Source: an uncultured Muribaculaceae bacterium
GTDB taxonomy: Bacteria; Bacillota_I; Bacilli_A; RF39; UBA660
NCBI GenBank assembly: GCA_964384115.1
Contig: CAYLJU010000001.1
Location: 6,469-70,468, forward strand
DNA: 64,000 nucleotides
Direction of reading: 5' to 3'
Made by a program: the position numbers and the translations under genes. This document shows, one piece after another, positions 42,298 to 43,156 of the stretch (positions are counted from its first letter, which is position 1; each line of letters opens with the position of its first letter). Under the pieces are notes generated by a model. That model was not told the origin of the DNA. It worked only from the letters and a program-made list of their open reading frames with translations, and ran no database searches.

Positions 42298-43113
42298 ATG
42301 AATGTATATAAAGTTAAAAATGGTGATGGAATAGAAAGTAGTTCTATTATTCATGGTGAAGAAAAATTAAGTGATATTTTAGGAAATACAACAGCAGGTT
42401 TTCATAATTCGATTTATCGAGGTAAAGATATTACTGAAATGTTTTATGATGGAACATTGACAACAAGAGTTGCTAATAATGATTTTACTGATATTTTTAT
42501 AGGGGATTATATTATAGGAAAATCTAGTGGAAGAAAGTATTTAGTAGCAGATATTAATTATAGATTACATTGTGGTGATACAGAATGTACAAAACCACAT
42601 ATTCTTATGATACCTGAAAAGAGTATGGGAACTGCACAAATGAACACATCAAATGTTGTGACAGGTGCTTATCCATCTAGTGCTATGTATACAACTAATT
42701 TAGCATCATATAAAACAATAATAAATAATGATTTTGGTTCATCTCATATTTTAAGTCATAGAAATGTTTTTGCAAATTCAGTAAGTGGTGAATATGAAAA
42801 TAGTGGTGCTTGGTATGACTCAACAATTGAATTGATGAATGAAAATATGGTTTATGGAAGCAATATATTTCATAATGTTGCTAATGGTACAAATGTTCCT
42901 TATAGTTATGAAATTGATAAATCACAATTATCATTATTTAGATTAGATAAGAGTAAAATAATTGCTTTTAATGATAATGGTTCAAGACAGTGGTACTGGC
43001 TAAGAAATGTTGCAAATTCTTCCTGCTTCTGTTATGTCTACAGCGGTGGTAATAGTAGCTACAGTTGTGCATCCTACTCTGGTGGTGTTCGCCCCTGCTT
43101 TTTAATCTATTAA
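42298..43113 (+). CDS. DGR target protein (variable tail fibre/receptor-binding protein) with C-terminal variable region
   Basis: C-terminus ...NSSCFCYVYSGGNSSYSCASYSGGVRPCFLIY; last 84 nt are the VR matching TR except at adenines. Confidence 0.8.
   Translation: MNVYKVKNGDGIESSSIIHGEEKLSDILGNTTAGFHNSIYRGKDITEMFYDGTLTTRVANNDFTDIFIGDYIIGKSSGRKYLVADINYRLHCGDTECTKPHILMIPEKSMGTAQMNTSNVVTGAYPSSAMYTTNLASYKTIINNDFGSSHILSHRNVFANSVSGEYENSGAWYDSTIELMNENMVYGSNIFHNVANGTNVPYSYEIDKSQLSLFRLDKSKIIAFNDNGSRQWYWLRNVANSSCFCYVYSGGNSSYSCASYSGGVRPCFLIY
43019..43102 (+). repeat. DGR variable repeat (VR)
   Basis: 84 bp matching TR 43811-43894; 11 differences, all at TR adenines. Confidence 0.9.
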
Positions 43114-43156
43114 TCTGCAATCTCACCCCCTTGTGGGGTGAAGCAGATAATAGATT
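43104..43156 (+). promoter_or_regulatory. imperfect hairpin immediately 3' of VR (GC core cacccc/ggggtg, loop cttgt) spanning target stop codon
   Basis: aatctattaatctgcaatctcaccccc ttgt ggggtgaagcagataatagatt. Confidence 0.55.

What the first reader, a model, noticed from the sequence alone, without database searches (positions are those of the whole stretch)
43086..43156. GC-rich IMH-like 3' end of VR followed by an imperfect hairpin
The last ~20 nt of the VR (GGTGGTGTTCGCCCCTG) are invariant between VR and TR and unusually GC-rich for this genome, as expected for an IMH. One nucleotide after the VR there is a ~53-nt imperfect palindrome (43104-43156) with a GC core (cacccc/ggggtg, 5-nt loop) that includes the target gene stop codon. 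In the Bordetella phage DGR, a GC-rich hairpin just 3' of the VR is required for efficient retrohoming. The TR copy ends differently (cgcccctgatttt aactcgcac) and lacks the palindrome, consistent with an IMH versus IMH* distinction.
Basis: partly seen in the sequence, partly recalled or inferred. Interest (0 to 1): 0.55.

Follow-up and report, generated by a model that had tools for sequence, protein, structure and literature searches.

The report
DGR target-site signal: IMH plus hairpin
The GC-rich end of the variable repeat and the strong hairpin right after it are real and conserved: they look like the landing signal a prophage's diversity-generating retroelement uses to rewrite its tail-protein gene, a known kind of element whose hairpin loop differs from the textbook form.

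Summary
The window holds a prophage DGR: target gene 42298-43113, VR 43019-43097, avd-like ORF, TR 43811-43889 and RT 44016-45155.

- **Mutagenesis pattern:** all 10 VR/TR differences at 43033-43075 lie at TR adenines.
- **IMH-like block:** the A-free 43076-43097 is identical in VR and TR. It is 71% GC in a 25.7% GC genome and uses rare GC-rich codons.
- **Boundary:** from 43098 (VR C, TR A) the two copies diverge.
- **Hairpin:** 43101-43159 is the most stable local DNA fold in the 64 kb. It has no T-tail, contains the stop codon and has no counterpart after the TR.

All 23 close relatives keep the hairpin, with compensatory changes at five stem positions. Near-identical relatives differ only at TR-adenine positions of the VR, so these DGRs are active.

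The loop departs from the published rule. It is 5 nt (CTTGT) on a C-rich arm, not a 4-nt GRNA tetraloop. This holds across the RT clade (0 of 38 perfect-stem (>=6 bp) GRNA hairpins), whereas the same script finds GRNA in 20 of 22 Brt-like loci.

A spacer motif (ATTAAAAG, 43932-43939) complements the VR IMH from 43098 on, which suggests where cDNA priming starts.

Verdict: a known kind of element, in a clade-specific variant. Function is inferred, not shown.

The parts
42298..43113 (+). DGR target gene (271 aa). It is the last ORF of the prophage tail module, has a DUF6273 (C-type-lectin-like) C-terminus and ends ...SGGVRPCFLIY*.
   Evidence: ORF list; Pfam DUF6273 E = 4e-7 at residues 208-270; translation; tail genes upstream by PHROGs.
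43019..43097 (+). Variable repeat (VR). The diversified part is 43033-43075: 10 substitutions, all at TR adenines and all on codon positions 1 or 2.
   Evidence: Ungapped VR/TR comparison at offset 792.
43076..43097 (+). Proximal IMH. An A-free, GC-rich block identical in VR and TR; the core GGTGGTGTTCGCCCCTG is 43081-43097. The 3' limit of TR-to-VR information transfer falls inside CCCTG 43093-43097.
   Evidence: Substitutions shared by VR and TR in L003 (43086), L006 (43089, 43092) and L025 (43086, 43087).
43098..43110 (+). Distal IMH (CTTTTTAATCTAT). It is related to but different from IMH* (ATTTTAACTCGCA, 43890-43902). Its first base, C43098 against TR A43890, is a discriminator found in 40 of 49 distinct loci.
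43111..43113 (+). Target-gene stop codon TAA, inside the 5' arm of the hairpin.
43101..43159 (.). Two-part hairpin or cruciform-forming palindrome.
- AT-rich outer stem: 43101-43118 paired with 43143-43159, with A43112 bulged.
- Internal loop: AATC 43119-43122 opposite A43142.
- GC core: 43123-43129 paired with 43135-43141.
- Loop: CTTGT 43130-43134.
   Evidence: Folds; most stable local fold in the window; covariation; no T-tail.
43181..43209 (+). Promoter-like site TTGACT-17-TAGAAT between the hairpin and avd. Similar TTGAC-containing sequence at the same place in L006 and L009 (read by eye, not scanned). Absent where the hairpin abuts the avd ribosome-binding site (L007, L011-13, L021, L023-27).
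   Evidence: 10 of 12 matches; sequences.
43232..43771 (+). Avd-like accessory ORF (179 aa, TTG start).
   Evidence: PHROG 3206 'Avd protein of DGR', E = 7e-5, residues 89-178. No Pfam hit. No BLASTP similarity to BPP-1 Avd. The assignment is therefore weak.
43811..43889 (+). Template repeat (TR), 22 adenines in 80 nt. It is followed by IMH* 43890-43902 and has no palindrome.
43891..43940 (+). TR-RT spacer element.
- IMH* UUUUAA 43891-96 pairs with UUAAAA 43933-38, stacked on the stem UCGCA 43898-902 / UGCGA 43925-29.
- ATTAAAAG 43932-39 is also the complement of the VR IMH from C43098, with one bulged T.
- Predicted priming nucleotide G43939, followed by G43940. Predicted first copied base TR G43889.
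   Evidence: Logic checked on BPP-1, where spacer GGTGGTCA is the reverse complement of VR TGACCACC (PMC5703328, PMC6182149). Inference only.
44016..45155 (+). DGR reverse transcriptase (379 aa).
   Evidence: RVT_1 E = 4e-22; IGSQISQ and YMDD motifs; 23% identity to Brt.

Best explanation
The region 43076-43159 is most likely the cis-acting target-recognition module of a prophage DGR. It has two parts.

**1. The IMH.** An A-free GC-rich block (43076-43097) is shared with the TR. A distal segment follows (43098-~43110) that differs from IMH*.

Inferred sequence of events:
- The avd-TR-spacer RNA is reverse-transcribed by the RT-Avd complex.
- Synthesis is primed from spacer G43939 and starts at TR G43889.
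- The adenine-mutagenised cDNA, still joined to the spacer RNA, anneals to the sense strand of the target.
- The joined molecule is continuously complementary to the VR side (...CCCTG|CTTTT(T)AAT) but not to the TR side, which has A43890.

This would set both the 3' boundary and the TR-to-VR direction of transfer.

**2. The hairpin.** The palindrome 43101-43159, present only at the VR, folds as a hairpin on single-stranded DNA or as a cruciform. It probably raises homing efficiency by keeping the target open or by pausing replication there.

**Shown here:** the structure, its conservation and covariation, its VR-specific placement, the transfer boundary, and active diversification in relatives.

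**Inferred:** every functional step, by analogy with BPP-1.
For: - **A real DGR:**
- **IMH:** the block is GC-rich beyond coding need. The transfer boundary lies between 43092 and 43098.
- **Hairpin stability:** z = -6.8, and the most stable local fold in 64 kb.
- **Placement:** a GC hairpin lies within 100 nt after the VR in 47 of 51 loci, after the TR in 5 of 51, and in 66 of 1020 random windows.
- **Covariation:** compensatory double changes at 43108, 43110, 43116, 43117 and 43118. On the covariance-model alignment 96.2% of cells pair against 80.9% shuffled, 16 of 21 pairs change on both sides, and the covariation score is 0.314 against 0.095 shuffled (0 of 500 shuffles reach it) and 0.02-0.06 for slid controls.
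- **Activity:** relatives diversify while IMH and hairpin stay identical.
- **Strand symmetry:** both strands fold equally well, mean difference 0.02 kcal/mol, as expected for a DNA cruciform.
- **Spacer-IMH pairing:** spacer and VR IMH covary. Anchored matches of 7 nt or more occur in 9 of 40 own pairs against 22 of 1432 cross pairs. BPP-1 serves as a positive control.
- **Published function of the BPP-1 counterpart:** PMC3240598, PMC5703328, PMC6182149, PMC12875486.
- **Orientation:** the host flanks suggest the target gene runs with chromosome replication, the orientation favoured in PMC12875486.
Against: - Nothing functional was tested.
- In BPP-1 the 4-nt GRNA loop is critical, and enlarging it by 2 nt abolishes activity (PMC3240598). 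Here the loop is 5 nt, CTTGT, so what recognises it must differ.
- GC-rich repeats were reported for only 34% of DGRs (PMC5758913), so the hairpin is not a universal requirement.
- The outer stem overlaps the distal IMH (43101-43110). Hairpin formation and primer-RNA pairing there would compete.
- The hairpin lies between two co-oriented genes, so an RNA-level role cannot be excluded. In L001-type relatives a short T-run follows the stem.
- The covariance-model alignment is fitted to the structure and includes some minus-strand rows.
- The spacer fold itself is no more stable than shuffles (z = 0.4).
Confidence: 0.85

Rival explanations
1. The hairpin is an RNA element of the tail-gene transcript: an intrinsic terminator or a 3'-end stabiliser that separates target-gene expression from avd-TR-RT.
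For: It sits just after the stop codon and is very stable as RNA (-33.5 kcal/mol). In W-type loci a promoter-like site follows it. In L001-type relatives the 3' arm runs into TTTTT.
Against: - No T-run follows it in the window, and the terminator scan does not pick it up.
- The next most stable hairpins in the window (36469, 16061, 57737, 51713) all carry T-runs.
- In L007, L011-13, L021 and L023-27 the hairpin is followed within a few bases by the avd ribosome-binding site and start codon, leaving no room for a promoter. Yet L012/L023 are actively diversifying, so transcription must read through it.
- No sense-strand bias appears in folding energy or in G-T pairs.
- The hairpin is tied to VRs and not to TRs.
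- Wu et al. also found terminators after IMH in only a minority of DGRs (PMC5758913).
Confidence: 0.08
2. The palindrome is an operator for a dimeric DNA-binding protein, or an RNA hairpin that controls avd translation. On this view it regulates DGR expression and is not a homing signal.
For: It has dyad symmetry and lies next to the avd promoter-like site or ribosome-binding site.
Against: The arms change sequence while keeping complementarity, which selects for structure and not for a fixed binding sequence. The same kind of hairpin follows VRs in distant relatives whatever its distance to avd, including targets far from avd such as L041. No candidate regulator gene lies in the cassette.
Confidence: 0.04
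3. The palindrome is a chance feature or a leftover of the recombination that placed the DGR cassette, with no present function.
For: AT-rich genomes hold many imperfect palindromes.
Against: It is 7.4 sd beyond the window mean and no shuffle is as stable. It is conserved with compensatory changes over RT identities of 76-86%, and as a class down to about 30%.
Confidence: 0.01

Closest known systems
IMH / IMH* and the hairpin/cruciform of the Bordetella phage BPP-1 DGR (Guo et al. 2011, PMC3240598; Naorem et al. 2017, PMC5703328)
   Same: - A-free GC-rich block shared by VR and TR, followed by a diverged segment.
- An inverted repeat only at the VR, touching the stop codon.
- Stem structure kept while its sequence varies.
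- Spacer RNA next to the priming site is complementary to the VR IMH (BPP-1 GGTGGTCA / TGACCACC; here ATTAAAAG / CTTTT(T)AAT).
- The priming base is followed by G (A56-G57 in BPP-1, G43939-G43940 here).
   Different: - BPP-1 has an 8-bp all-GC stem with a G-rich 5' arm and a 4-nt GAAA loop. Here a 7-bp core with a C-rich 5' arm and a 5-nt CTTGT loop sits on an 18-bp AT-rich outer stem that overlaps the distal IMH and four codons.
- The first IMH/IMH* mismatch is C/A directly after the GC block, against 3 nt after the cDNA start in BPP-1.
- The RTs are only 23% identical, and the Avd proteins show no detectable similarity.
Clade-specific DGR hairpins of Nanoarchaeota (GRA triloops inside the target gene; IMH TGGGGT against IMH* TGGAAT; Paul et al. 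2015, PMC4372165)
   Same: This is a precedent for a DGR lineage with its own loop rule and its own fixed IMH/IMH* difference, and for a hairpin that overlaps coding sequence.
   Different: Those loops are purine triloops on the sense strand. Here the sense-strand loop is a 5-6 nt pyrimidine-rich CTTGT type, and the host is a bacterial prophage.
Group IIC intron targeting of terminator stem-loops (discussed in PMC3240598)
   Same: A retroelement uses a DNA stem-loop next to its integration site. Stem formation matters more than stem sequence.
   Different: The present hairpin has no T-tract. DGRs replace sequence by cDNA homing and do not insert an intron.
Intrinsic (factor-independent) transcription terminator
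   Same: A GC-rich stem-loop just after a stop codon.
   Different: It has no T-run. It is followed directly by the next gene's ribosome-binding site in active relatives. Real terminators in the same window have T-runs.

Membership tests
Diversity-generating retroelement (DGR) | Reverse transcriptase of the DGR type (RVT_1 domain, [LIV]GxxxSQ motif, YxDD) | tested here: met
   RVT_1 E = 4e-22; IGSQISQ and YMDD in the translation; homology to Brt, 23% identity, E = 3e-24. The motif definition is from my own knowledge of the DGR literature.
Diversity-generating retroelement (DGR) | TR/VR repeat pair whose differences lie at TR adenines | tested here: met
   10 of 10 differences at 43033-43075 are at TR adenines, on codon positions 1 or 2.
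Diversity-generating retroelement (DGR) | VR at the 3' end of a target gene with a C-type-lectin-like variable domain | tested here: met
   The VR covers the last 32 codons. DUF6273 hit at residues 208-270. The fold itself was not modelled.
Diversity-generating retroelement (DGR) | Accessory protein Avd | tested here: inconclusive
   An ORF is in the right place. The only hit is weak (PHROG Avd, E = 7e-5). No Pfam hit and no BLASTP match to BPP-1 Avd.
Diversity-generating retroelement (DGR) | Ongoing diversification | tested here: met
   Shown for relatives, not for the window itself. Near-identical loci differ almost only at TR-adenine positions of the VR.
IMH / IMH* (BPP-1 type) | GC-rich segment without adenines at the 3' end of VR, identical in TR | tested here: met
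   43076-43097 is identical in both; the 17-mer core is 71% GC against 25.7%; rare GC-rich codons are used.
IMH / IMH* (BPP-1 type) | Followed by related but non-identical sequence in VR and TR | tested here: met
   CTTTTTAATC against ATTTTAACTC, then no similarity. The C/A first mismatch is conserved in 40 of 49 distinct loci.
IMH / IMH* (BPP-1 type) | Marks the 3' boundary of TR-to-VR information transfer | tested here: met
   Comparative evidence. Non-adenine changes are shared by VR and TR up to 43092 (L003, L006, L025), and never at 43098 or beyond.
IMH / IMH* (BPP-1 type) | Spacer RNA at the priming site is complementary to the VR IMH (model of PMC5703328) | tested here: met
   In the window the match is ATTAAAAG with CTTTT(T)AAT, 8 pairs with one bulge. 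Across the clade the pairing covaries. BPP-1 is a positive control. In the W subclade the TR pairs about as well as the VR apart from the G:C pair at 43098.
IMH / IMH* (BPP-1 type) | Required for homing and sets its direction | not testable with these tools
   Needs a homing assay.
DGR target hairpin/cruciform (criteria of Guo 2011, as used by MyDGR, PMC6602519) | Inverted repeat downstream of VR, absent after TR | tested here: met
   (47 of 51 loci after the VR against 5 of 51 after the TR).
DGR target hairpin/cruciform (criteria of Guo 2011, as used by MyDGR, PMC6602519) | GC-rich stem of 7-10 bp | tested here: met
   The core has 7 bp, 5 of them G-C. This is at the lower limit, and an 18-bp AT-rich extension surrounds it.
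DGR target hairpin/cruciform (criteria of Guo 2011, as used by MyDGR, PMC6602519) | 4-nt loop with consensus GRNA on the sense strand | tested here: not met
   The loop is CTTGT, 5 nt. No locus of this RT clade (0 of 51) has a perfect-stem GRNA hairpin; one short-stem GAGA loop turns up only at a relaxed threshold. The same script finds GRNA in 20 of 22 distinct Brt-clade stem-loops.
DGR target hairpin/cruciform (criteria of Guo 2011, as used by MyDGR, PMC6602519) | Lies 4-34 bp from the VR | tested here: met
   The core starts 25 nt after the first IMH/IMH* mismatch (43098 to 43123). The outer stem starts 3 nt after it.
DGR target hairpin/cruciform (criteria of Guo 2011, as used by MyDGR, PMC6602519) | Stem pairing conserved while its sequence varies | tested here: met
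DGR target hairpin/cruciform (criteria of Guo 2011, as used by MyDGR, PMC6602519) | Extrudes as a cruciform in supercoiled DNA and raises homing efficiency | not testable with these tools
   Only indirect support: both strands fold equally well.
Intrinsic terminator | Stem-loop followed by a T/U-tract | tested here: not met
   The tail is AAATATAAATTATATC. The scan does not list the site.

The most novel reading that the evidence does not exclude
DGR target hairpins may follow lineage-specific codes that co-evolve with the RT, Avd and spacer RNA.

- **This lineage** (gut-phage RTs 30-86% identical to the window's): a C-rich 5' arm ending in CCC, a 5-6 nt CTTGT-type loop, an (A)ATC at the 5' stem junction, and a fixed VR-C / TR-A discriminator that pairs with the spacer's priming G.
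- **Brt-like lineage:** a G-rich 5' arm and a GRNA tetraloop.

If this holds, the loop and junction are read by a DGR-encoded component in a sequence-specific way, and the hairpin is more than a generic device for opening DNA. Tools that look only for GRNA loops would then undercount DGR hairpins, which may contribute to the reported 34% figure.
Probability: 0.45. Interest if true: 0.55.

Novelty: new variant of a known kind. Interest (0 to 1): 0.36.

Why it matters
How the mutagenised cDNA finds and enters its target is still the open step of DGR biology (PMC5703328, PMC12875486). This locus adds no new principle, but it offers three things.

- A clean natural example in which the transfer boundary, the IMH/IMH* discriminator and the likely priming base can be read from comparative data.
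- A second hairpin pattern to set against the GRNA type. Loop-swap experiments between the two lineages could test whether the loop is read by DGR components.
- A practical point for annotation: a detector that requires a GRNA tetraloop would miss every perfect-stem hairpin in this gut-phage DGR lineage.

Tried and rejected
- **Rfam scan of the whole window:** no family matched.
- **Terminator scan:** the large hairpin is not listed. The scan lists only a weak 5-bp mini-hairpin plus T-run inside IMH and IMH*.
- **Loop pairing with a spacer ACAA motif** (CACAA / GACAA about 10 nt after the TR): dropped. The ACAA motif is conserved whatever the loop sequence.
- **Strand asymmetry as a test of RNA versus DNA function:** null result. 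Mean energy difference 0.02 kcal/mol, 17 loci favour sense and 15 antisense, 16 against 12 G-T pairs.
- **MAFFT alignment of the hairpin (A2):** it misaligned the 3' arm. I replaced it with a per-sequence fold table and a covariance-model alignment. The latter also contains minus-strand rows, because the element is palindromic.
- **Fold of the TR end plus spacer:** no more stable than shuffles (z = 0.4). Only two covarying pairs support its stem.
- **A 2026 bioRxiv paper** listed could not be opened.
- **Literature check:** searches found no description of the CTTGT-type loop class. The library is incomplete, so this does not prove it is undescribed.
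Full report
**1. What is there**

The window (25.7% GC) holds a siphovirus-type prophage inside a bacterial chromosome.
- Integrase lies at 17031-17792 on the minus strand. Host genes flank the prophage: BipA, D-Ala-D-Ala ligase, RsmF and a cation ATPase.
- Terminase, portal, major head, tape measure, Dit and minor tail genes run up to 41533.

At the right end of the prophage, between the tail genes and the endolysin (45985-46842), lies a complete DGR cassette:
- target gene 42298-43113, with a DUF6273 C-terminus;
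- a weakly Avd-like ORF 43232-43771;
- TR 43811-43889;
- RT 44016-45155, with RVT_1, IGSQISQ and YMDD, 23% identical to Bordetella Brt.

VR 43019-43097 matches the TR at a fixed offset of 792. The 10 differences at 43033-43075 are all at TR adenines and all on codon positions 1 or 2.

**2. The observation**

*The GC-rich end of the VR.*
- GGTGGTGTTCGCCCCTG (43081-43097) occurs only in the VR and in the TR.
- The identical, adenine-free block is 43076-43097.
- Its GC content (71%) is extreme for this genome.
- It is not forced by the protein. Arg-Pro-Cys is written CGC-CCC-TGC, and these codons make up 4%, 2.7% and 28% of their families here, a joint probability of 3e-4.

*The palindrome.*
- It folds over 43101-43159, with z = -6.8 as DNA and -6.3 as RNA.
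- It is the most stable of 15,984 sliding 64-nt folds in the window, 7.4 sd from the mean.
- It has an AT-rich outer stem of 18 pairs, an internal loop AATC opposite A, a 7-bp core and a 5-nt loop CTTGT. The stop codon lies in its 5' arm.
- The sequence after the TR has no such structure.

**3. Relatives**

The RT retrieved 13 viral contigs and 9 genome contigs at 76-86% identity. The genome contigs come from uncultured gut Clostridia and Bacilli genomes assembled from metagenomes. More distant loci were retrieved as well.
- Every close relative has a VR/TR pair with adenine-specific mismatches and the same two-part hairpin.
- The GC core never changes. The outer stem changes by compensatory double substitutions at positions equivalent to 43108 (T-A to G-C), 43110 (T-A to C-G), 43116 (T-A to C-G), 43117 (G-C to T-A) and 43118 (C-G to T-A).
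- Two of these positions lie in the last codons of the target gene, and the non-coding 3' arm follows them.
- On a covariance-model alignment 96.2% of cells pair against 80.9% shuffled. 16 of 21 pairs change on both sides. The covariation score is 0.314, against 0.095 shuffled and 0.02-0.06 for slid controls. That alignment is fitted to the structure and includes some minus-strand rows.

**4. Activity**

Near-identical phages differ almost only in the VR, at TR-adenine positions, while IMH and hairpin stay identical.

| Pair | VR differences | IMH + hairpin | Upstream | Downstream |
|---|---|---|---|---|
| L012 / L023 | 12 of 61 | 0 of 100 | 3 of 600 | 2 of 824 |
| L009 / L022 | 15 of 59 | 0 of 100 | 2 of 600 | 2 of 824 |

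The L001, L003, L004 and L020 group behaves the same way.

**5. IMH versus IMH***

- Substitutions that are not at adenines appear in both VR and TR in L003 (43086), L006 (43089 and 43092) and L025 (43086 and 43087). TR-to-VR copying therefore reaches at least 43092.
- Position 43098 is C in every VR and A in every TR of the close relatives, and in 40 of 49 distinct loci of the wider clade. This includes loci where CGC and CGA are synonymous, so protein selection does not explain it.
- The transfer boundary therefore lies in CCCTG 43093-43097.

This mirrors BPP-1. There the cDNA starts at TR G117, three bases before the first IMH/IMH* mismatch (PMC6182149).

**6. Spacer complementarity**

In BPP-1 the spacer RNA 5' of the priming base A56 pairs better with the VR IMH than with IMH* (PMC5703328). 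I confirmed this on the sequence: GGTGGTCA against TGACCACC.

In the window, ATTAAAAG (43932-43939) is the complement of the VR sequence CTTTT(T)AAT starting exactly at C43098. Its last G pairs with the VR C but not with the TR A.

Across the clade the spacer motif ...AAG|G(A/G)(A/G) is conserved, and the bases 5' of AAG covary with the VR IMH:

| VR IMH | Spacer |
|---|---|
| CTTCTGCAT | ATGCAGAAG |
| CTTCTGTATT | AATACAGAAG |
| CTTTCTCT | AGAGAAAG |
| CTTTCCT | AGGAAAG |
| CTTTTGC | GCAAAAG |

Anchored matches of 7 nt or more occur in 9 of 40 own pairs against 22 of 1432 cross pairs.

From this I infer that G43939 is the priming base, followed by G43940 as A56 is followed by G57 in BPP-1, and that TR G43889 is the first base copied. 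The local RNA fold places IMH* UUUUAA on UUAAAA next to a stem with two covarying pairs. That fold is not unusually stable.

**7. Not a terminator**

- No T-run follows the hairpin in the window, and the scan does not list it.
- The next most stable hairpins in the window all have T-runs.
- In half of the close relatives the hairpin is followed within a few bases by the avd ribosome-binding site and start codon. Those DGRs are active, so transcription must pass through it.
- Both DNA strands fold equally well.

A minor RNA-level role cannot be excluded.

**8. How it compares with the known element**

Guo et al. defined DGR hairpins as 7-10 bp GC-rich stems with a 4-nt GRNA loop, 4-34 bp from the VR. 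In BPP-1 both loop size and loop sequence are critical (PMC3240598), and MyDGR searches for exactly this pattern (PMC6602519).

The present hairpin meets every criterion except the loop. I surveyed two RT clades with the same script.

| Feature | Window's RT clade (30-86% identity) | Brt-like clade (42-100% identity to Brt) |
|---|---|---|
| Distinct stem-loops | 38 | 22 |
| Loop length | 5 nt in 24, 6 nt in 10, 4 nt in 4 | 4 nt in 21 |
| Loop sequence | CTTGT in 9, on unrelated stems | GRNA in 20 |
| GRNA tetraloops | 0 of 38 with a perfect stem of 6 bp or more; one GAGA loop on a 4-bp stem | 20 of 22 |
| 5' arm | C-rich; ends in CCC in 28 | G-rich |
| Closing pair | C-G in 36 | not tabulated |

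The hairpin pattern is therefore specific to the RT lineage. There is a precedent in the GRA triloops of nanoarchaeal DGRs (PMC4372165).

An (A)ATC motif sits at the 5' junction of the stem in 27 of 38 distinct hairpins, against 27% of background windows. In the window it forms the internal loop. I have no explanation for it.

**9. Mechanism**

The most likely reading is the BPP-1 model carried over to this lineage.
- The IMH sets the 3' junction and the direction of transfer, through continuous complementarity of the spacer-RNA-cDNA molecule with the VR sense strand.
- The hairpin, present only at the VR, keeps the target open or pauses replication (PMC5703328, PMC12875486).
- GC skew and gene-strand bias in the host flanks suggest the target runs with chromosome replication. 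That puts the sense strand on the lagging-strand template, the orientation favoured in E. coli reconstitution (PMC12875486).

All functional steps are inferred.

**10. Verdict**

The element is a known kind of feature, here in a lineage-specific variant that standard criteria would miss. Interest is modest.

Noticed in passing
window 43932-43940 (with 43891-43896 and 43898-43902 / 43925-43929): The spacer motif ATTAAAAG|G complements the VR IMH from C43098 and pairs with IMH* UUUUAA next to a covarying stem. This predicts priming base G43939 and first copied base TR G43889. The same motif class (..AAG|GRR) is conserved and covaries with the IMH across the RT clade.
   Followed up: partly
window 43119-43122; also L007, L011, L015, L038, L039, L061, L073 and others, at the 5' base of the GC stem: An (A)ATC motif sits at the 5' junction of the GC stem in 27 of 38 distinct hairpins of this clade, against 27% of background windows. 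In the window it is the unpaired internal loop. BPP-1 has no such motif. Function unknown.
   Followed up: partly
window 43098 / 43890: The VR codon is TGC (Cys) where the TR reads TGA. Copying the TR base unchanged would truncate the target protein by 5 residues. The C/A difference is also kept in relatives where it is synonymous (CGC/CGA).
   Followed up: yes
window 43181-43209: A promoter-like site TTGACT-17-TAGAAT lies between the hairpin and avd. TTGAC-containing sequence sits at the same place in L006 and L009 (read by eye). It is absent in relatives where the hairpin directly abuts the avd ribosome-binding site, so the cassette seems to be transcribed in two different ways within one lineage.
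   Followed up: partly
window 43081-43093 and 43873-43885: The terminator scan flags a weak 5-bp mini-hairpin (GGTGG..CGCC) followed by a T-run inside both IMH and IMH*. It could be chance or part of the DGR RNA fold.
   Followed up: no
window 44016-45155 (RT residues about 181-213): Relative to Bordetella Brt the RT carries an insertion of about 33 residues just before the IGSQISQ motif (BLASTP gap).
   Followed up: no
window 43232-43771: The avd-like ORF is 179 aa with a TTG start, longer than BPP-1 Avd (128 aa). Only its C-terminal half gives a weak Avd hit. There is no Pfam hit and no BLASTP similarity to BPP-1 Avd.
   Followed up: partly
window 16061-16124 and 36469-36532: These are the two next most stable hairpins in the window. 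Both have T-runs and look like ordinary terminators. The first lies near the left prophage boundary, next to the integrase region.
   Followed up: no
window 1-16000 and 47700-64000: The host flanks have positive GC skew (+0.05 to +0.09), strong purine excess on the + strand, and 84% of ORF bases on the + strand. The prophage and its DGR target are therefore probably co-directional with chromosome replication.
   Followed up: partly
L001-L005 at about 6430-6524 / 6601-6695; L018 7594-7696 / 8848-8950: Relatives carry further imperfect direct repeats downstream of the RT: a 95-nt pair 171 nt apart, and a 103-nt pair in L018. Their mismatches are not adenine-biased, so they are probably repeated protein domains and not extra VRs.
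   Followed up: no
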